IMG/VR virus record: IMGVR_UViG_2740892231_000001
Source: a virus
Taxonomy: Duplodnaviria > Heunggongvirae > Uroviricota > Caudoviricetes
Direction: 5' to 3' (one strand)
DNA length: 21,088 nucleotides
The position numbers were made by a program, and so were the translations under genes. This document shows, one piece after another, positions 1 through 7,266 of the stretch. Positions within the stretch are counted from its first letter, which is position 1. The number at the start of each line of letters is the position of its first letter. The notes beneath the pieces are model-generated. The model was not told the origin of the DNA. It worked only from the letters and a program-made list of their open reading frames with translations, and ran no database searches.

Positions 1-777
1 GCATCCGGCCCTCCCGGCTCGCCTTTTTCGCCCTTCTCTCCCCGTTCACCTTTCACACCCTGAAGCCCCTGTGGTCCTGTCTCACCACGCTCACCCTTTG
101 GCCCACGCTCGCCGGTATCGCCTTTTGGCCCGGGAATACCCTGTGGCCCGGTGTCCCCCTTATCCCCCTTCGGTCCCCGCGCATTCTCTGCCCGTTTTTT
201 TGCCTCCTCCGCACTGGCTGCGGACGCTTCCGCACGTTTCAGGATTTCCGCTGCCACCGCTTCCAGCTCTGCAAGGGCTTTCGGGTAATANNNNNNNNNN
301 CCGCTCGCCGGTATCGCCTTTTGGCCCGGGAATACCCTGTGGCCCGGTGTCTCCCTTATCCCCCTTCGGTCCCCGCGCATTCTCTGCCCGTTTCTTCGCT
401 TCCTCTGCACTCGCCGCTGACGCTTCCGCACGTTTCAGGATTTCCGCTGCCACCGCTTCCAGCTCTGCAAGGGCTTTCGGGTAATACTGTGCGTCTTCCA
501 GGTCCATCAGAAATTTATTCAGCGTTCCCGGTGCAGAATCCGCCTTCACCAGAATGTCACCCACATATGACGGCGCGTACCCTTCCGTGTTCAGCGTCAC
601 CCGGTACAACCCCGGCTCAACATCCATACTGTAACTGCCGGTTTCCCCCGGCTGACCATACGCCACCGTGGTGACAATCACCGTCTCCGTTGTGCGGCGC
701 GCTTTCAGCTCTATCGTGCATCCCGGTACCGCTTTTCCCGTACCATCCTTCAGCACACCCGATATTCTGACTGTCAT
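1..777 (-). CDS. stf: Side tail fibre protein, N-terminal part (partial; gene continues beyond the window start; reading frame broken by the 10-N gap at 291-300)
   Basis: ATG at 777-775 preceded by GGGGGA RBS. N-terminus [15 protein letters not shown]... resembles lambda Stf N-terminus [15 protein letters not shown] (recalled). Collagen-like [24 protein letters not shown] repeats; translating the minus strand of 1-290 continues Gly-X-Y repeats to base 1. Confidence 0.8.
291..300. other. 10-N assembly gap inside stf, flanked by a ~185-bp imperfect direct duplication (106-290 and 302-486)
   Basis: Run of n. The flanks are near-identical; all differences I checked are synonymous in the stf frame. 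Confidence 0.9.
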
Positions 778-919: not shown

Positions 920-1060
920 TTACTGCTTACACTGTAAGAACGCCGCAATCTCCGCGCCCGCTATCCGGAACCGGAACTCGCACAGTGAAGTGTGGGTGAT
1001 CCAGATAATGAGCACTACCGTGATACAAATCACGGTGGTTTTTAACGGTTTTTGCGACAT
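920..1060 (-). CDS. Hok/Gef-family type I toxin-like small membrane protein (46 aa: MSQKPLKTTVICITVVLIIWITHTSLCEFRFRIAGAEIAAFLQCKQ)
   Basis: Hand-translated; below the 60-aa cutoff of the ORF track. ATG at 1060 with AAGGAG RBS 8 nt upstream, TAA at 922-920. Hydrophobic helix VICITVVLIIW resembles Gef IVICITAVV; SLCEFRFR and EIAAFLQCK resemble Hok/Gef/HokA motifs (DLCEVHIR, EVAAF, AAFLACK), recalled from memory. Confidence 0.6.
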   Translation of the reverse strand: MSQKPLKTTVICITVVLIIWITHTSLCEFRFRIAGAEIAAFLQCKQ

Positions 1061-1184
1061 AAACGCTTGCTCCTTTTACGGAGAGGCGCTAACCTTTCAC
1101 TTGCTTAGGATGAATGGTCAGGCCTCGGGTTAAACATGAATGTTTGTCCGGGGCCTTTTCACATCCGGCCTTCAGGTGTTCCCT

Positions 1185-1194
1185 NNNNNNNNNN
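1185..1194. other. 10-N gap in the J/hok intergenic region, flanked by a 66-bp duplication (1119-1184 and 1217-1282)
   Basis: Run of n with the same sequence on both sides. Confidence 0.9.
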
Positions 1195-1356
1195 CAATTT
1201 GCTGAAGATCGAAAGTCAGGCCTCGGGTTAAACATGAATGTTTGTCCGGGGCCTTTTCACATCCGGCCTTCAGGTGTTCCCTCCGGCCATCAGCCAAAGG
1301 CACCCGCGCATACTGTACGGTTTTTGTCTCCTTCCGGCAATCCCGGGGCGCGATGT

Positions 1357-4300
1357 TCAGCGGATACTGATCCCCGCGCTGTTTTTCTTCACCACTATCG
1401 CCTGAAGGTTACTGATACGTGAACTGCCAAAACTCCCGTTCTGACGTCGTGAACTTACGGTAAAACTCAGGGTGATATGACCATGACCGGCTGGCATATC
1501 GATGATCCCGCTGAAAATTCCCGGCTCTGTCACTGACCTGCCTGAATAAATCCGGCGTCCGTTCTGATCAACATGCAGGAAGCACTCTGTCCAGATGTCA
1601 TTACTGGTGCGGGATTCCTGTTTTGACCCGACATAGATTATCGGCGGGATTATAATCTGCCGGTCAAAGCTGTGATCGTCATACACCGTCAGCGTTCGTG
1701 TACCGTTCGCAAGGTAACTACCATCCACCGGAAAAGCCACCCCTGCACATTTCACAAGATCACCAATAATGTTCTCCGCTTTCAGCGTGCCATTTATCGT
1801 ACAGTTCTCCGCTATCACGACATTATTGAGCGTGCCCGAGTTCGCACTGATATGTCCGCTGATGTCCGCATTGCGGGCCGTCAGCCTGCCCTCCGGCGTC
1901 AGGGAGAACGTCGGGGGATTGCCGGACGAGGTGATGCTCACTGCAAACAGTCGCTTCAGGAACACGTCGTTCATGAACAGCTGATTCCCCTGCGCCACAA
2001 ACAGCGGCGTGGTGTTGCCGTTCTCCGGGTTAATCATCGCGATACGGTCCGCCTGCAGCAGTATATTGCTCAGGGGCTGGCCATCAGCATCCTCAATCCC
2101 CGCACCAATACCGGCAACATACGGAATGCCGTTTTTTGTTTTCTGCACCTTCAGCATGTACAGCGCAGCCAGGTCGTTATTTGTGTCTGTCTGCACCCGC
2201 TGTATNNNNNNNNNNAATATTGCTCAGGGGCTGGCCATCAGCATCCTCAATCCCCGCACCTATACCGGCAACATACGGAATGCCGTTTTTCGTTTTCTGC
2301 ACCTTCAGCATGTACAGCGCAGCCAGGTCGTTATTTGTGTCTGTCTGCACCCGCTGTATCTGCTGTATGGTGGCACTCTGGTCTTCCAGGGTTTTACTGA
2401 CCGTCTGTGTGATTTCATTGCGGGTTTCTGTGATGGTGGTCTTCATCTCCGCCATCTCATCATCAAGCTGGCTGTTATCAATCAGCTCCCACATCCCCTG
2501 TGCCAGATGTGTCTTCCCGATTTCTCCTCTGAAAAAGTCCAGATACCCTTCCGCATCATTGCTCGCCCGGCCACTGGCTTCCACAAACGCAGATTTCCCC
2601 ACCAGATTGACGCTGCGCACATAAAACCAGAAATCCTTCCCCGGCTTAATGTGCGGGCCGGAGACACTCCACTGGCTGCCTGTCCCCAGATAACGGGCAA
2701 AGGTTTCCACCTGTGCCATGTCCGTGATGCGTTTTTCTGAGAACCAGAATTCAGACTGTACCGTCGGGTCATACACCGCCAGCACCGGTACTGCTGTTAT
2801 CTGATAATACCCCGGCGTCAGCTCAATGCTGGCCGGTGCTGCAGGCGCATTAATCCGGAACGCGGTGGTGGCAGGTTCGCCCTGCTGGCCGTAGCTGTTT
2901 ATCGCCCTGACCGTCAGGGTGTATTCCCCCAGAGGCAGGCCACTGAAACGGTGCTCCGTGTCGGCAGTGATGGCGGTGGTCACCAGGCGGCTGTTTTCAC
3001 CACTGCCACTGGTCAGGCGCAGACTGAAGCGCACGCCCTTCACCACCCGCGGCGTGTCCCATTTCGCCAGCGCCAGATACTGGCCGTCTGAGGCACTCAC
3101 CTCCACCGTGAGGTGCTGCACTGCCGGCGGGATGACGCTGTTCAGTGAACCGGTGAGCGGCTCAAAGGTGGCCCCGTTATCCACGATGGCTTCTTTTTCC
3201 GGTACGTGCTGCACTGCCGTGATGGCAAAGGTGCCGTCCGTGTTTTCCCGGATGGAAACACAGCGGAACAGGCGACGACGCAGTGACGGCAGGGAGAGTC
3301 CCCACACACCGTATGTCTCCACGCCATCAGGCAGGACGCTGACCTGTATCCGGTCAGGGGCGGGGTGTGCAGTGATGTCCACGCGCACCGGCTTACCGCT
3401 GCCGTTAATCAGGTTCACCGTCGANNNNNNNNNNGACACAGCGGAACAGGCGACGGCGCAGTGACGGCAGGGAGAGTCCCCACACCCCGTATGTCTCCAC
3501 ACCATCAGGCAGGGTACTGACCTGTATCCGGTCCGGGGCGGGGTGTGCAGTGATGTCCACGCGCACCGGCTTACCGCTGCCGTTAATCAGGTTCACCGTC
3601 GATGTCCCTGCTTCCGGCAGTGTCACCTCACGGTCCAGCGTCAGGGTACGGCTGGCGGCATCGATGGACAGGATGCGTCCGCCGGTCAGGGTCCCTGCGT
3701 AGTCGTTATCACAGATTTCAATAATGTCACCGGGCGTGTGCCGCAGCCCCTGTGACCCGAGCGTGAAATCCACCGTCTGCGTTTCCAGCAGTTCTGTCTT
3801 TATCACCCACAGTCCGGCACGGTGGGCCTGACCGCGGCTGGTACAGCCGAACGCATCCATCTTCAGCAGATTGCGCCCGTAGCGCAGGATGGCGTCCGGG
3901 TCTTCCACCAGTTCCGTGGAAGTCTGCCAGCCGTTCTGCGGGTCGGTGTAATTCACCTCCACCGCCGTGTGCCGGTCCTTCAGGGCACTGAAGCTGTAGC
4001 GGAACCCCACGCCGTTATCATCCACCACCACATCGCTGTTGGTGTACGGCCACACCACATCCGACGGGCGGTCCTGAACGAACGTCAGCGTCTGGCCGTT
4101 CCATACCGGCATACAGCGCATCGCCGAGCAGAAATCCCCCAGGACATCCCACACCTTACGCTGCTGTGACAGGTACGCATTGAAAGTCATCCGCGGCTCT
4201 GTTCCCCCGAAACCATCCGGGACCGTCTGGTCACAGTACTGCCCGATGGCATACAGTGCCCACTTGTCCACGTCCGGGGCCCCCAGGCGTTTTCCCATGC

Positions 4301-5352
4301 CGTAGCGCGGGTGGGTCAGCATGTCCCACAGGCACCAGGCCGGGTTATTGCTGTATGCCGGTTTCAGNNNNNNNNNNAAAGGTCATCCGCGGCTCTGTGC
4401 CCCCGAAACCATCCGGGACCGTCTGGTCGCAGTACTGCCCGATGGCATACAGTGCCCACTTGTCCACATCCGCGGCCCCCAGGCGTTTTCCCATCCCGTA
4501 GCGCGGGTGGGTCAGCATGTCCCACAGGCACCAGGCCGGGTTATTGCTGTATGCCGGTTTCAGACTCCCGTCCCAGATACCGCTGTAGGTGCGTTTTTCC
4601 GGGTCATAGTTTGACGGCACCTGAATGATGCGACCACGGATATGGTAGTTCACCGTCAGCTGCTGGCCACCAAACTGCTCCGCATCCACCTGCAGCCCCA
4701 CAATGGCCGTGTTCGGGTAGCACTGTTTCACATCGATGATTTCGGTGTATGACGACCACAGCGTTCTGTTCTGCAGCTGGTCCGTGGTGCTGTCCGCCGT
4801 CACCCTGACCATCCGGATGTTAAAGGGGCGCTCAGGGAGATTATTCAGAATCACCGACGTCAGATACTGCGAGGTGGTCTTGCCGTTAATGGTGACATCC
4901 TTCTCCGTCACCCAGTGCCCGTTACGCTCAAGCTGAATCAGCAGGCGGACAGAAGAGGGATTACGGTCACCCTTTGAGGTGGTCTCCACCAGTGACTGTA
5001 CCCCGAAGGTGACCCGCAGACGGTCAATGTTCGCTGACGTGATGGTGCGCGTCACCGGCTTTGCCTTCGTCACCTCCACGCCCAGTGCGGTTTCTGCCCC
5101 GGAGGACTCAAAGCCTTCCGGCGGTGTCTGCTCCTGCTCCCCGGCACGCCAGACGGCGGTCACACCGTGTATCACGGGATTACCGTCCGTGTCCGTCAGC
5201 GGGGTTTTGTTCACCAGAATACTCTGCAGTCCCTTCACCGGACCTTCCACCGGTCCCTCACCAATGGCATCAATCACGCTCATCATCTGCGTGGATTTGA
5301 GATTGTCCTTCGCCTCACGCGGTGTGTGCCCCTTGCCGCCCCCTTTACCCAC
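1357..5352 (-). CDS. J: Tail tip / host specificity protein J (central tail fibre); reading frame apparently broken three times by 10-N gaps with duplicated flanks
   Basis: GTG start at 5352 with AGGAG RBS. N-terminus [22 protein letters not shown] and C-terminus ...[17 protein letters not shown]...[10 protein letters not shown] match lambda gpJ (recalled) across the four ORF fragments 4345-5352, 3405-4322, 2177-3505 and 1357-2196. Net length after removing duplications is about 1150 aa, against 1132 aa for lambda J. Confidence 0.95.
2206..2215. other. 10-N gap inside J, flanked by a ~144-bp imperfect duplication (2062-2205 and 2216-2359)
   Basis: Run of n with near-identical flanks (2 mismatches seen). 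Confidence 0.9.
3425..3434. other. 10-N gap inside J, flanked by a ~168-bp imperfect duplication (3257-3424 and 3435-3602)
   Basis: Run of n with near-identical flanks carrying several mismatches. Confidence 0.9.
4368..4377. other. 10-N gap inside J, flanked by a ~185-bp imperfect duplication (4183-4367 and 4378-4563)
   Basis: Run of n with near-identical flanks carrying several mismatches. Confidence 0.9.
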
Positions 5353-5392
5353 TCTGTCCCCCTCTCCTGTCTGATGTCTGAATCTGTTTATG

Positions 5393-5426
5393 CCAGAAAA
5401 CGACAGGCACCCCGGAGGGTGCCTGT
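5393..5426 (-). promoter_or_regulatory. Stable hairpin followed by U-rich tract about 40 nt upstream of the J start (terminator- or attenuator-like)
   Basis: 10-bp perfect stem ACAGGCACCC / GGGUGCCUGU (5403-5412 and 5417-5426) with a 4-nt loop. On the minus strand it is followed by CGUUUUCUGG. Confidence 0.3.
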
Positions 5427-5440
5427 GTCATGACGGAATA

Positions 5441-5556
5441 AAATTTCTGAAATTCTTCACATTTCCGGCAATTGCCTGTAGCCACTATAATGACGCAGCG
5501 TTACAGTTTTTTTGCTCAATAAAAGCAATAATTATCAGACCTCCTTAAGGTGACTA
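5441..5556 (+). repeat. Unit A of a tandem pair of paralogous ~115-bp non-coding units in the I-J intergenic insert
   Basis: Shares with unit B the blocks tctgaa(a)tttcttcacattt, gcgttacagtttttt, tcaataaaa and ctcctt in the same order and spacing. Confidence 0.6.
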
Positions 5557-5600
5557 TTCGTCTCCCGTCAGTATCCGGCGATATTACGGGAGATTTTTTT
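5498..5600 (+). ncRNA. Candidate small RNA A, antisense in orientation to the tail operon
   Basis: Perfect -10 hexamer TATAAT at 5486-5491, weak -35. Conserved body. Ends at an intrinsic terminator: bulged hairpin 5561-5593 then T7 at 5594-5600. No conserved ORF. Confidence 0.3.
5561..5600 (+). terminator. Rho-independent terminator (plus strand)
   Basis: Stem tctcccgt / acgggaga, extended by an inner 5-bp helix around loop ccggcg, followed by ttttttt. Confidence 0.6.
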
Positions 5601-5678
5601 GCTTCAGCCACACCACAACATCCTGCTCATTTACGCCACTGGTACCCTGGCGGTCATCCGTTCTGTAAACCTGCGACA

Positions 5679-5790
5679 GAAAAAGTCTGAATTTCTTCAC
5701 ATTTTCTGTACGTTCCCGTGGCAGATATCATTCCGGGGCGTTACAGTTTTTTCGGGTCAATAAAAACAAAACTCCTTGAACGTTAATCTT
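5679..5790 (+). repeat. Unit B of the tandem pair of paralogous non-coding units in the I-J intergenic insert
   Basis: Aligns with unit A block by block; diverged between the conserved blocks. Confidence 0.6.
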
Positions 5791-5840
5791 CATCGGTTCT
5801 GTCCCGCAGCTCCGCTAACTCTGCGGGATTTTTTTTTATT
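5738..5840 (+). ncRNA. Candidate small RNA B, paralogue of A
   Basis: -10-like TATCAT at 5726-5731, at the position aligned to the TATAAT of unit A. Conserved blocks. Ends at hairpin 5803-5827 then T9 at 5829-5837. Confidence 0.3.
5801..5837 (+). terminator. Rho-independent terminator (plus strand), abutting the stop codon of gene I
   Basis: Stem cccgcag / ctgcggg (5803-5809 and 5821-5827) with an 11-nt loop, followed by nine T. Confidence 0.6.
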
Positions 5841-5841
5841 T

Positions 5842-6522
5842 TTATCCCCGCCCGATAACCACCACTTTCCCGTCTCCGCCCTCATCACGGGTGCTGATAT
5901 CCTGGGATATCCGTCGTGAACCAACCAGCATTTCACCGTAAGGCACCGGCATCGGGTTACCCTGGGCAATCATGTTGTCCAGTGACGAAAAATACGTGTT
6001 CTGTTTACCGTTATCCGTACTTTTATACTCCGGCGTCTTTGCCTTCGGGGCCAGCATCTGAGCCACACCACCCAGTATCATGCTGGCACCCAGTGAGAAC
6101 AGCATCGTGGTGGCAGTCAGCCCTCCGGCACTCAGGGCTGCGCCCCATGCCGCCAGTGTTGCACCACCAGTGAAAAATGACCCGACAATCGCTGCAACCC
6201 CCAGCACCACCTGAAAAACACCATTTCCCCCGGCTCCGGCCAGTCGCGGCACAATGTGGATGACCGCTCCCTCACCCAGTTGTTCGTGAAGACGGGCGTA
6301 CACCGCCTCCGGTGCGGTATCCTCACCGGCAATACGTATCTGATACCAGCCTTCGTTCATCTGACCGCGGAATCCCGGCACCTGCAGCGACAGGGCACGG
6401 ATGGCCTCCGCTGCCGTGTTCACATACAGGCTGATGCGGCGACCAAATCGTTGTAAATCCCCGTGAAGGCAGATGCGGACCAGTGGCGGTGACGCCAGAC
6501 AGAATGCGTTCGTCGTTGCCAT
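5842..6522 (-). CDS. I: Tail assembly protein I
   Basis: 226 aa. Resembles lambda gpI (223 aa, recalled): ...RICLYGDLQRFGRRI...WYQIRIAG...YFSSLDNM.AQGN. Position between K and J. Confidence 0.9.
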   Translation of the reverse strand: MATTNAFCLASPPLVRICLHGDLQRFGRRISLYVNTAAEAIRALSLQVPGFRGQMNEGWYQIRIAGEDTAPEAVYARLHEQLGEGAVIHIVPRLAGAGGNGVFQVVLGVAAIVGSFFTGGATLAAWGAALSAGGLTATTMLFSLGASMILGGVAQMLAPKAKTPEYKSTDNGKQNTYFSSLDNMIAQGNPMPVPYGEMLVGSRRISQDISTRDEGGDGKVVVIGRG

Positions 6523-7266
6523 TTTTCAGAATACCTCTCCCGTTTACTCAGTTGTTCAGGTATATGGTGAAGCAGTTCACCGTTGCCACAGTAAATGGCG
6601 GCATGATTCGGCACCGATGAACCAAAGCAGCACAGCAGGATATCGCCCGCCTGTGCACAGGACGGAGACACCCGGTAAAAGCCGTTGTCTGCCAGGTTGT
6701 CCAGGTACAGGTTCTGACCGTTGCGCCACCAGTCATCCTCACGCACAAAATCCGGCAGCGTTATCCCCGCCAGATGGTATGCATCCCGGAACAGGGTGTA
6801 ACAGTCCGTCACACCGTGTTCAAAGCGCCGTCCGGTCAGGTGCGGCACACAGCGGAACCGGTGAATGTCACCCCGGCAGACCAGCCACCAGGGCAGGGCA
6901 CTCTTTATCTGCAGCCGCCGGTCCGCCTCGCTCAGCCAGGGCAGTCCACCGGGATGACTGTGGACCAGCGCCACAATCTCCCCCTGCATCTGTGCCTGCA
7001 GCCAGTCTTCCGGTGCAATACGAAAATACGCCTCCGGCTCTGCGGAGATATTCACGCAGGACTGGTACCGTTCGCCCTCCGGNNNNNNNNNNCTGTGCCT
7101 GCAGCCAGTCTTCCGGCGCAATACGAAAATACGCCTCCGGCTCTGCGGAGATATTCACGCAGGACTGGTACCGTTCGCCCTCCGGGGTGCTTATCACGAA
7201 GCCGCACGACTCCGCAGGCGCACACCGCCGGGCATGCGCCAGAATCACTGATTCAGTCTGTGTCAT
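6420..7266 (-). CDS. K: Tail tip assembly protein K (NlpC/P60 plus JAMM/MPN domain); interrupted by the 10-N gap at 7083-7092 with duplicated flanks
   Basis: ATG at 7266. MTQTESVILAHARRCAPAESCGFV... matches the lambda gpK N-terminus (recalled). HSHPGG metal-binding motif. C-terminal part ...LLCCFGSSVPNHAAIYCG... Overlaps the I start by about 100 bp, as in lambda. Confidence 0.9.
7083..7092. other. 10-N gap inside K, flanked by a ~94-bp duplication (6989-7082 and 7093-7186)
   Basis: Run of n with near-identical flanks (1 mismatch). Confidence 0.9.

What the first reader, a model, noticed from the sequence alone, without database searches (positions are those of the whole stretch)
5353..5841. 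Non-lambda ~490 bp insert between tail genes I and J carrying two tandem paralogous small-RNA-like units
In lambda the stop of I and the start of J are essentially adjacent. Here 489 bp of non-coding DNA separates them. It holds two ~115-bp units (5441-5556 and 5679-5790) that share ordered conserved blocks. Each has a -10-like hexamer at the aligned position (TATAAT 5486-5491; TATCAT 5726-5731) and each ends in a strong plus-strand intrinsic terminator (hairpin plus T7 at 5561-5600; hairpin plus T9 at 5801-5837). These terminators point against the direction of the late operon. No ORF is conserved between the units. The simplest reading is a moron carrying two paralogous antisense small RNAs inside the tail operon. 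The -35 elements are weak, so the promoter assignment is tentative. A minus-strand alternative (TGTAAC-like box, hairpin 5403-5426 as terminator) cannot be excluded.
Basis: seen in the sequence. Interest (0 to 1): 0.75.

Follow-up and report, generated by a model that had tools for sequence, protein, structure and literature searches.

The report
Tandem PasB-family prophage small RNA genes
The 489-bp spacer between tail genes I and J holds two diverged, back-to-back copies of a prophage small-RNA gene already detected experimentally in pathogenic E. coli (PasB / EcOnc22-24), so the finding is real, but it adds members to a known family whose function is still unknown.

Summary
Window 5353-5841 separates lambda-type tail genes I and J, both on the minus strand. 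It holds two about 240-bp units, each ending in a plus-strand hairpin and T-run.

Both units are homologous to the single 240-bp I-J spacer of EPEC E2348/69 prophage PP6. That spacer encodes PasB, an 83-nt, Northern-validated, Hfq-dependent sRNA antisense to I and J. They also match Sakai prophages Sp11, Sp14 and Sp15. There, published hybrid reads for EcOnc22-24 map exactly onto the equivalent RNA and start at my predicted 5' end.

Refinements:
- The working -10 is probably TACAGT (5502-5507 and 5742-5747), not TATAAT/TATCAT.
- This predicts RNAs at 5514-5600 and 5754-5837.
- An invariant upstream block matches a CRP site, centred near -60.5. This is inference only.
- Arrays of one, two or three units occur. 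The window's unit-1 type is rare: 21 of 5426 E. coli genomes and no phage record.

Verdict: new members and a tandem arrangement of a known sRNA family. Interest is moderate.

The parts
5353..5841 (.). The whole I-J spacer: a moron holding two tandem sRNA gene units.
   Evidence: It is 489 bp, against about 57-60 bp in lambda-type loci and about 240 bp (one unit) in most EHEC/EPEC-type prophages.
5393..5426 (-). Hairpin ACAGGCACCC/GGGTGCCTGT followed by CGUUUUCUGG on the late-operon strand. It looks like a terminator just upstream of J. It occurs only in the J-proximal unit and its role is unknown.
   Evidence: inverted repeat I4. It is conserved in single-unit spacers and absent from the second and third units of arrays.
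5446..5461 (+). CRP-like site of unit 1, TCTGAAATTCTTCACA. It matches 9 of 10 positions of TGTGA-N6-TCACA and is centred about -60.5 from the predicted start.
   Evidence: The block is invariant in every unit examined, and variation is confined to the middle of N6.
5479..5507 (+). Predicted promoter of sRNA 1: -35 TAGCCA (5479-5484), a 17-bp spacer, and -10 TACAGT (5502-5507).
   Evidence: Only T1/A2/T6 of the -10 and T1/G3 of the -35 are (near-)invariant across 64 units. Spacing to the CRP-like site is constant. 5' ends of homologues map 6-7 nt downstream.
5514..5600 (+). Predicted sRNA 1, about 87 nt, a divergent subfamily. It has an (ARN)5 run at 5518-5532, CCUCCUU at 5540-5546, a 15-bp terminator hairpin at 5561-5593 and U7 at 5594-5600.
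   Evidence: It is 66% identical to PasB. The fold gives -24.3 kcal/mol, z = -3.6. The stem carries compensatory changes relative to the canonical stem. This unit and the following spacer occur in only 21 of 5426 E. coli genomes.
5601..5685 (.). Inter-unit spacer of unknown origin. It contains the CA-rich stretch CCACACCACAACAUC.
   Evidence: It is found only in L047, L049 and the window among the fetched loci. No phage DNA or protein match was found.
5686..5701 (+). CRP-like site of unit 2, TCTGAATTTCTTCACA.
5719..5747 (+). Predicted promoter of sRNA 2: -35 TGGCAG (5719-5724) and -10 TACAGT (5742-5747). TATCAT (5726-5731) lies inside the spacer.
5754..5837 (+). Predicted sRNA 2, about 84 nt, of canonical PasB/EcOnc22 type. 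It has an (ARN)4 run at 5759-5770, ACUCCUU at 5771-5777, AAUCUUCAU at 5785-5793, a terminator stem at 5802-5809 / 5821-5828 and U9 at 5829-5837. Its 3' end lies 5 nt from the I stop codon.
   Evidence: It is 77% identical to PasB and 81% to the Sakai Sp15 form. See also alignments A1-A3 and the fold.
5842..6522 (-). Tail assembly gene I, the flank convergent with the sRNA genes.
   Evidence: Pfam Lambda_tail_I.
4345..5352 (-). 5' part of tail-tip gene J, the other flank. The ORF is cut only by a 10-N run at 4368-4377.

Best explanation
The spacer is a moron made of two tandem, diverged genes for Hfq-dependent small RNAs of the PasB / EcOnc22-24 family.

Each unit carries its own promoter on the plus strand, antisense to the late operon. 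The promoter has a weak -35 (TAGCCA or TGGCAG) and a -10 of TACAGT. Upstream is an invariant TCTGA-N6-TCACA block that I infer to be a class-I-type CRP activator site.

Transcription should start near G5514 (unit 1) and G5754 (unit 2). It should stop at the intrinsic terminators ending at 5600 and 5837. This gives RNAs of about 87 and 84 nt.

Each RNA has an unstructured 5' half followed by a terminator hairpin and U-tail. The 5' half holds A-R-N repeats and a pyrimidine-rich pairing region: CUCCUU in both, plus AAUCUUCAU in unit 2. This is the usual build of an Hfq-binding, trans-acting sRNA.

The prophage would make these RNAs in the lysogen, independently of late transcription. They would pair with host and virulence mRNAs. 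Because the two units have different pairing regions, they should have partly different targets.

Shown for homologues: expression, size, strand, Hfq dependence and physical RNA-RNA contacts. Inferred here: that these two copies are expressed, their exact ends, CRP control and the pairing regions.
For: **Position and strand in EPEC**
- PasB (NC_011601.1, 1466343->1466261, 83 nt, Northern-validated, Hfq-dependent; Table S6 of PMC8550237) lies in the 240-bp I-J spacer of prophage PP6, antisense to I and gpJ.

**Position and strand in EHEC**
- The Hfq-CRAC peaks EcOnc22/23/24 fall in the I-J spacers of Sakai Sp15, Sp14 and Sp11, on the strand opposite I and J. EcOnc22 gave a Northern band of about 85 nt and was destabilised without hfq.
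- RNase E-CLASH hybrid reads for EcOnc22-24 are printed as GCCTGAAAAATAACTCCATAACGTTAATCTTCA.... That 33-mer sits exactly in those spacers. This fixes the coordinate offset between Sakai genome versions at +135 to +137.
- All three hybrids shown start at the G that I had predicted as the start, 7 nt after the TACTTT box.

**Homology of the window units**
- Alignments A1-A3.
- Identity to PasB is 77% (unit 2) and 66% (unit 1).
- Profile E-values are 1e-39 and 1e-30.

**RNA-type constraint**
- There are 24 distinct terminator hairpins with a near-invariant stem and free loops.
- Compensated stem changes occur: C-G -> U.G -> U-A, G-C -> A-U, and CCCACAG/CTGTGGG.
- No ORF is conserved.

**Promoter**
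- Conservation across 64 units follows the classic pattern: T1/A2/T6 in the -10, T1/G3 in the -35.
- The upstream block is invariant, with variation only in the centre of N6.
- No indel occurs between the block and the -10 in any unit.
- PasB is higher in LB than in glucose-containing DMEM, which fits CRP activation.

**Trans action**
- RIL-seq partners of PasB include ler, perB, bfpB, bfpI, ftsZ and galE.
- PasB AUCUUCAUUU pairs 10/10 with the bfpI fragment (shuffle p about 0.02) and 8/8 with the ler fragment (p about 0.07).
Against: - No expression data exist for this window or for any strain carrying the unit-1 type.
- Unit 1 has a different terminator and pairing region. In the related L050/L052 arrays its counterpart lacks TATAAT, so it could be weaker or inactive.
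- The promoter scan finds no good sigma-70 match.
- The -35 is poor, and the conserved TATAAT/TATCAT box inside the spacer is unexplained. It could be a second promoter.
- The CRP idea rests on sequence and on one growth-condition contrast that also differs in temperature and medium. The centre at -60.5 is 1 bp off the textbook -61.5.
- Two matches to the CRP core in 21 kb are not by themselves significant: 12 of 100 shuffles reach two.
- The Northern size of EcOnc22 (about 85 nt) is longer than the 75 nt predicted for that variant.
- Target pairing is weakly supported: ftsZ and galE fragments show nothing, and CLASH hybrid counts are 1-2.
- No regulatory effect of any family member has been demonstrated.
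Confidence: 0.85

Rival explanations
1. Cis-antisense regulator. The RNAs act mainly on the late I-J polycistronic mRNA, to which they are perfectly complementary. Pairing would trigger processing or reduce J expression, so they would not be trans regulators.
For: The position right at the I-J junction is conserved in hundreds of prophages. The RNAs are fully complementary to the late transcript. The 3' end lies 5 nt from the I stop codon.
Against: - The same junction accepts an unrelated moron (sodC) in Sakai Sp4 and a Citrobacter prophage, so the site looks simply permissive.
- Homologues are abundant on Hfq in uninduced lysogens and form hybrids with unlinked mRNAs.
- The number of units varies from 1 to 3.
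- Both roles could coexist.
Confidence: 0.12
2. Only unit 2 is a working gene. Unit 1 is a decaying duplicate with a drifted body, transcribed weakly or not at all.
For: - Unit 1 is the most divergent member: 60-66% identity.
- Its counterparts in L050/L052 lack the TATAAT box.
- It is rare.
Against: - Unit 1 keeps the invariant upstream block, both boxes and exact spacing.
- It keeps an (ARN)5 run and a CCUCCUU motif.
- It has the strongest terminator of the family, maintained by compensatory changes.
- The same subtype is kept in several different arrays (L047-L052).
Confidence: 0.15
3. The RNAs are sponges (anti-sRNAs) for core sRNAs, like AgvB and AsxR, rather than mRNA regulators.
For: [quoted passage not shown]
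- PasB forms a RIL-seq chimera with the pasA region.
- The CA-rich stretch at 5609-5622 resembles the GcvB target consensus CACAACA.
Against: - There is no similarity to AgvB or AsxR and no Rfam hit.
- The CA-rich stretch lies outside the predicted RNAs, downstream of a strong terminator.
- Most recorded partners are mRNAs.
Confidence: 0.08
4. No RNA product matters. The region is only a set of terminators or insulators, or a structured leader of J.
For: Hairpins exist on both strands, and the region lies immediately upstream of J.
Against: - Discrete antisense RNAs have been detected in two pathotypes by four methods: CRAC, Northern, RIL-seq and CLASH.
- The promoter-like block is more conserved than any hairpin loop.
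Confidence: 0.03
5. A small protein (MKINV...) is encoded on the late-operon strand, opposite the AAUCUUCAU motif.
For: An ATG-initiated ORF of 21-38 codons exists in 15 of 29 units, including unit 2.
Against: The ATG is missing in 14 of 29 units. Frame and length change with indels. There is no Shine-Dalgarno sequence. Unit 1 has no such ORF.
Confidence: 0.02

Closest known systems
PasB sRNA of EPEC E2348/69 (Pearl Mizrahi et al. 2021, PMC8550237; Zhu, Shabalina and Storz 2026 preprint)
   Same: - Same locus (I-J spacer), same strand relation and same promoter block.
- Same terminator stem (unit 2) and same overall build.
- Identity is 77% (unit 2) and 66% (unit 1).
   Different: - PasB is a single copy per prophage. 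Here there are two tandem, diverged copies.
- Unit 1 has a different pairing region and a longer terminator.
- The longest shared exact words are 15 and 9 nt. The published word-size-28 BLAST survey would therefore not have counted either unit.
EcOnc22/EcOnc23/EcOnc24 of E. coli O157:H7 Sakai (Tree et al. 2014, PMC4104026; Waters et al. 2017, PMC5286369)
   Same: - Same locus in Sp15, Sp14 and Sp11.
- 81% identical to unit 2, with an identical terminator loop.
- The promoter half of unit 1 is nearly identical to the Sp15 spacer.
   Different: - Single units, with a 9-nt shorter 5' region.
- In the texts and tables I read, PasB and EcOnc22-24 are not linked to each other.
AgvB and AsxR prophage anti-sRNAs (Rfam RF02702, RF02703)
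   Same: They are short prophage-encoded Hfq-binding RNAs with A-R-N motifs, transcribed convergently with late genes.
   Different: They occupy a different site, downstream of PR'. They share no sequence similarity and give no Rfam hit here. They are 51-60 nt long.
sodC moron at the I-J junction (Sakai Sp4 ECs_1120)
   Same: It uses the same insertion point and orientation. It is followed by the 3' half of an sRNA unit: -10 box, body and CCCGCAG terminator.
   Different: It is protein-coding and lacks the CRP-like block.
Tandem duplicated sRNAs OmrA/OmrB and PrrF1/PrrF2 (from my own knowledge and refs 64-65 of the preprint)
   Same: Adjacent paralogous sRNA genes with conserved and diverged segments, each with its own promoter and terminator.
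   Different: Those are core-genome genes with demonstrated regulators and targets. These are prophage cassettes with variable copy number.

Membership tests
PasB / EcOnc22-24 prophage sRNA family | Encoded in the spacer between tail genes I and J, on the strand opposite the late operon. | tested here: met
   Window: I at 5842-6522(-), J from 5352(-), units on the plus strand. Reference loci.
PasB / EcOnc22-24 prophage sRNA family | Sequence homology across promoter block, RNA body and terminator. | tested here: met
   The nhmmer profile search gives E = 2.5e-39 (unit 2) and 3.7e-30 (unit 1). Identities are 77% and 66%.
PasB / EcOnc22-24 prophage sRNA family | Intrinsic terminator with stem (U)CCCGCAG/CUGCGGG(A) and a U-run next to the I stop codon. 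| tested here: met
   Unit 2 has the exact stem. Unit 1 has a variant stem, CUCCCGU.../...ACGGGAG, with compensatory changes.
PasB / EcOnc22-24 prophage sRNA family | Expressed as a discrete Hfq-dependent RNA of about 75-85 nt. | not testable with these tools
   This is shown only for homologues. No data exist for this window.
Moron (extra gene unit in a lambdoid late operon; Juhala et al. 2000, cited) | Extra DNA between genes that are adjacent in related phages, with its own promoter and terminator. | tested here: met
   489 bp against about 57-60 bp in lambda-type loci. Terminators. The promoter is predicted from conservation.
Hfq-dependent trans-acting sRNA | Single-stranded pairing region, intrinsic terminator with U-tail, A-R-N or U-rich Hfq-binding motifs. 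| tested here: met
   Folds and (ARN)4-5 runs. Actual Hfq binding was not tested for these copies.
Hfq-dependent trans-acting sRNA | Demonstrated regulation of a target by base pairing. | not testable with these tools
   Only contact data exist for homologues, plus short complementarities.
Class I CRP-dependent promoter | A TGTGA-N6-TCACA site. | tested here: met
   9 of 10 core positions at 5446-5461 and 5686-5701. The block is invariant across units.
Class I CRP-dependent promoter | Site centred near -61.5 (or one or more helical turns further upstream) from the start. | tested here: inconclusive
   The centre is -60.5 if the start is 7 nt after the -10, and -59.5 to -61.5 within the uncertainty of the start.
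Class I CRP-dependent promoter | Activity depends on cAMP-CRP. | not testable with these tools
   The only hint is indirect: PasB is higher in LB than in DMEM.
AgvB/AsxR anti-sRNA family | Match to Rfam RF02702/RF02703 and location downstream of PR'. | tested here: not met
   No Rfam match even at E <= 10. The same tool finds AgvB in Sakai. The locus is different.

The most novel reading that the evidence does not exclude
The I-J junction of EHEC/EPEC-type lambdoid prophages may be a cassette site. Modular sRNA genes would be stacked there (one to three per prophage) and reshuffled by recombination. Each cassette would comprise one invariant CRP-responsive promoter, an exchangeable pairing region and a terminator. 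Lysogens would gain a carbon-source-sensing input onto virulence and host genes such as ler, bfp and yjbJ, with a target range that depends on which cassettes are present.
Probability: 0.3. Interest if true: 0.6.

Novelty: new member of a known kind. Interest (0 to 1): 0.4.

Why it matters
- It links two separately named sets of experimentally detected sRNAs, PasB in EPEC and EcOnc22-24 in EHEC. Both belong to one family sitting at a fixed prophage position.
- The family is broader than the published BLAST survey could see. It includes a divergent subtype and tandem arrays of up to three genes.
- It gives a concrete, cheap-to-test hypothesis for their control (cAMP-CRP) and for their pairing regions.
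- These RNAs contact virulence regulators such as ler and per/bfp in EPEC. Copy-number and seed variation between STEC strains could therefore contribute to strain differences in virulence regulation.
- For annotation, it identifies a recurrent unannotated gene in about 14% of complete E. coli genomes (781 of 5426).

Tried and rejected
1. Rfam at the gathering threshold on the whole window, and at E <= 10 on the region, gave only noise. PasB and EcOnc22 loci also give no Rfam hit, so the family is simply not in Rfam.
2. My first guess was AgvB, prompted by the CA-rich motif at 5609-5622. I rejected it: AgvB lies downstream of PR' and is unrelated in sequence.
3. The minus-strand small ORF MKINV... 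was rejected. The ATG is absent in 14 of 29 units and the frames shift.
4. The minus-strand sRNA ending at hairpin 5403-5426 has no conserved -10 on that strand. The hairpin is missing from inner units, and no published signal lies on that strand.
5. TATAAT as the -10 was disfavoured by the mapped 5' ends, though it is not excluded as a second promoter.
6. The origin of the inter-unit spacer was not found. It has no DNA match in phages. Its translation has no meaningful match, so the idea that it is a remnant of an I gene 3' end is unsupported.
7. RNAduplex on RIL-seq target fragments gave non-significant energies with huge loops. Only a contiguous-helix search was informative.
8. I looked for start-site tables in PMC7547250, but no supplements are held.
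9. The apparent fragmentation of J is an artefact of 10-N runs.
10. The promoter block was searched for in other contexts. Of 124 instances in viral contigs, 120 precede a canonical unit. The other four are two variant units, one unit cut by an IS, and one unrelated chance match. It is not a portable promoter.
Full report
**1. What is in the sequence**

The window is the late (morphogenesis) region of a lambda-like prophage, read on the minus strand.
- The ORF at 5842-6522(-) is tail assembly protein I (Pfam Lambda_tail_I).
- The ORF starting at 5352(-) is the N-terminus of tail-tip protein J.
- They are separated by 489 bp. Lambda-type loci fetched for comparison have about 57-60 bp at this junction.

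The spacer holds two units about 240 bp apart. A 73-nt block is 74% identical between them, and shorter blocks lie in register. Each unit ends in a plus-strand hairpin and T-run: 5561-5593 + T7 and 5802-5828 + T9.

**2. Relatives and the link to published RNAs**

Similar DNA occurs in 781 of 5426 complete E. coli genomes, with a median of three places per genome, and in many Stx-converting phages. Nearly all of these have a single 240-bp unit. None is annotated.

Three lines tie the unit to known RNAs.

(a) *EPEC.* Table S6 of Pearl Mizrahi et al. 2021 places PasB at NC_011601.1 1466343->1466261 on the minus strand. PasB is 83 nt, Northern-validated, Hfq-dependent and ranked high in RIL-seq. 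That interval lies inside the 240-bp spacer between the I-like gene and gpJ of prophage PP6, antisense to both. Its 3' end is 6 nt from the I stop codon. The PasB Northern probe is the reverse complement of the terminator hairpin that unit 2 shares.

(b) *EHEC, Hfq crosslinking.* Table S2 of Tree et al. 2014 lists Hfq-CRAC peaks EcOnc22, EcOnc23 and EcOnc24. EcOnc22 gave a Northern band of about 85 nt and was destabilised without hfq. All three peaks fall in the I-J spacers of Sakai prophages Sp15, Sp14 and Sp11, on the strand opposite I and J.

(c) *EHEC, RNase E crosslinking.* The CLASH tables of Waters et al. 2017 print the hybrid reads. The EcOnc22-24 part reads GCCTGAAAAATAACTCCATAACGTTAATCTTCA. 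This 33-mer sits in exactly those three spacers. That fixes the coordinate offset between the old and current Sakai records at +135 to +137. Rfam hits to AgvB and Esr41 independently suggested an offset of about +140.

Alignments A1-A3 show both window units to be homologous to these spacers over promoter, body and terminator. In the texts and tables I read, PasB and EcOnc22-24 are not connected to each other, and only two papers mention PasB at all. The family is not in Rfam.

**3. Anatomy from comparison**

I fetched I-J junctions using the I protein as query. Their spacer contents fall into classes:
- Lambda-type short gap.
- One unit, about 240 bp (the majority).
- One unit plus an extra left module, about 344 bp.
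- Two units, about 424 bp, and 489 bp as in the window.
- Three units, 715 bp (L047 and L049, whose first two units match the window's).
- sodC moron plus only the 3' half of a unit, 854 bp (Sakai Sp4 type).

Over all fetched loci with units, 178 have one, 9 have two and 3 have three.

Aligning 29 and then 64 distinct units gives a clear conservation profile.
- An upstream block A.AAAA.TTCTGAAwwTCTTCACATTT is invariant.
- About 17 variable bases follow.
- Then comes T.GC.., with T and G invariant.
- Then the TATAAT/TATCAT/AATAAT box.
- Then G.GTTA...T, in which only T, A and the last T are (near-)invariant.
- Then a T-run, the RNA body and the terminator.

The distance from the block to the TA...T box never changes.

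**4. Where transcription starts**

Consider TA...T as the -10 (TACAGT in both window units) with T.GC.. as a weak -35 at 17-bp spacing. This predicts a start 7 nt downstream.
- In EPEC this gives 82 nt, against the reported 83 nt, with a start 1 nt away.
- In the Sakai type it predicts a start at the G of GCCTG. All three CLASH hybrids shown begin exactly there.
- The L050/L052 first units have no TATAAT but keep a TAGATT at the TA...T position.

So I place the starts near G5514 and G5754, giving RNAs at 5514-5600 (87 nt) and 5754-5837 (84 nt). It is conserved and I cannot explain it. It may be a second promoter giving RNAs about 16 nt longer. The EcOnc22 Northern size of about 85 nt lies between the two predictions, 75 and 91 nt.

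**5. The invariant block as a CRP site (inference)**

TCTGA-N6-TCACA matches 9 of 10 positions of the CRP core TGTGA-N6-TCACA (established consensus), with A/T-rich flanks.
- These are the only two such matches in the 21-kb window. That count alone is not significant: 12 of 100 shuffles reach two.
- The weight comes from invariance across all units and from variation confined to the two central bases of N6, where CRP makes no base contacts.
- It also comes from the fixed spacing, which puts the centre at -60.5. This is 1 bp off the classic class I position of -61.5 and within the uncertainty of the start.
- A poor -35 and a non-consensus -10 are what an activator-dependent promoter looks like. 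The plain sigma-70 scan finds nothing.
- PasB was reported to be higher in LB than in DMEM, which contains glucose. Those conditions also differ in temperature.
- In viral contigs the block is found essentially only in front of this sRNA.

I rate CRP control at about 0.5.

**6. The RNA**

Both predicted RNAs have an open 5' half and a terminator hairpin with a U-tail.
- Next comes CUCCUU (anti-Shine-Dalgarno-like).
- In unit 2 and most relatives, AAUCUUCAU follows.

Terminator stems are nearly invariant while loops differ: 24 hairpin variants were seen. The few stem changes are compensated. Examples are C-G -> U.G -> U-A and G-C -> A-U in the unit-1 subtype, and CCCACAG/CTGTGGG in L134.

No ORF is conserved. 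The minus-strand MKINV... frame lacks its ATG in 14 of 29 units and shifts frame. This is how an RNA gene evolves, not a coding one.

**7. What it probably does**

For homologues, physical contacts are published.
- RIL-seq chimeras link PasB with ler, perB, bfpB, bfpI, ftsZ, galE and rplX.
- CLASH hybrids link EcOnc22/23 with yjbJ (ECs5028, identified) and EcOnc24 with ECs5349. Counts are low.
- PasB AUCUUCAUUU forms a perfect 10-bp helix with the bfpI fragment (shuffle p about 0.02). The same motif forms 8 bp with the ler fragment (p about 0.07). ftsZ and galE show nothing.
- In the yjbJ hybrid, CCAUAACGUU is matched 10/10 by the mRNA part (read text).

So the pairing region is the stretch from CUCCUU to AAUCUUCAU. 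Unit 2 keeps it and forms a 9-bp helix with bfpI. Unit 1 replaces it with CCUCCUUAAGGUGACUAUUCG and should see other targets. No regulatory outcome has been shown for any member.

**8. Rarity and mosaic structure**

Unit 1's RNA plus the inter-unit spacer occurs in only 21 of 5426 complete E. coli genomes, all at 95% identity or more, and in no phage record. The listed carriers are mostly human isolates, several with STEC strain names.

Units are mosaics. Unit 1 has the Sp15-type promoter half and a private body. Unit 2 has the BP-4795-type promoter half and the Sp15-type terminator loop. This suggests recombination within the conserved blocks.

The published PasB survey used word size 28 and over 75% coverage. 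It reported that genomes typically carry a single PasB variant and does not discuss tandem PasB copies. The longest exact words shared with PasB here are 15 and 9 nt.

**9. Verdict**

It is two new members, one of them a divergent subtype, of a known and experimentally detected but functionally uncharacterised prophage sRNA family. They sit in a tandem arrangement not described before. The CRP site and the pairing regions are new, testable inferences.

Noticed in passing
window 291-300, 1185-1194, 2206-2215, 3425-3434, 4368-4377, 7083-7092: There are six runs of exactly 10 N. Three of them coincide with the apparent frame changes that split J into four ORFs, so J is probably intact and the fragmentation is an artefact of masking or gaps.
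   Followed up: yes
window 920-1305 (minus strand): A hok/gef-like toxin ORF lies between J and the tail-fibre gene. It is 46 aa (MSQKPLKTTVICITVVLIIW...) at 920-1060. A sub-threshold Rfam sok match lies at 1058-1305 (42 bits against a gathering score of 59) and is interrupted by an N-run. Together they suggest a second moron, a type I toxin-antitoxin. The matching position in strain 2013C-3181 is annotated Hok/Gef.
   Followed up: partly
window 5486-5491 and 5726-5731: The TATAAT/TATCAT box is conserved across units (A2 is invariant) yet lies at -28 to -23 of the promoter supported by mapped 5' ends. It could be a second, upstream promoter or another protein's site. This is unexplained.
   Followed up: partly
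window 5393-5426 (minus strand): A terminator-like hairpin and U-tract point along the late operon just before J. It is conserved in single-unit spacers but present only once per array. It might stop non-antiterminated transcription into J in lysogens.
   Followed up: partly
window 5609-5622: The CA-rich stretch CCACACCACAACAUC in the inter-unit spacer resembles the GcvB R1 target consensus CACAACA used by AgvB. It lies downstream of the unit 1 terminator, so it would be transcribed only by read-through.
   Followed up: no
L047 3181-3897 and L049 (IMG/VR contigs 3300029741_000087 and 2698536657_000013): These loci hold three-unit arrays (715-bp spacer). The first two units match the window's, and a third unit of another subtype lies next to I.
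   Followed up: partly
L099, L100, L082, L079 (I-J spacers of about 344 bp): An extra module of about 100 bp on the J side has its own hairpin and T-run on the sRNA strand (AAACCCCGGTATCAGCAGATACCGGGGTTTTCTTTC). It may be yet another small transcript.
   Followed up: no
L003 41396-42246 (Sakai Sp4) and L034 (Citrobacter): The sodC moron occupies the same I-J junction in the same orientation. In Sp4 it is followed by the -10 box, body and terminator of an sRNA unit without the CRP-like block. The sRNA there might be made from the sodC transcript's 3' end.
   Followed up: partly
L175; L127 7483-10252 (strain 2013C-3181): Insertion sequences hit this spacer. An IS element interrupts a unit just after the promoter block in L175. 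An IS66 sits between the two-unit array and gene I in 2013C-3181.
   Followed up: no
L013-L027, L037-L044 and L011 (genome-contig hits): Lambda I-J sequence appears on short or low-coverage contigs of many unrelated assemblies, including Pseudomonas, Shewanella, Bradyrhizobium and Enterococcus. An E. coli-type unit appears in a 'Streptomyces flavalbus' contig. These look like lambda or E. coli DNA contamination of the assemblies.
   Followed up: no
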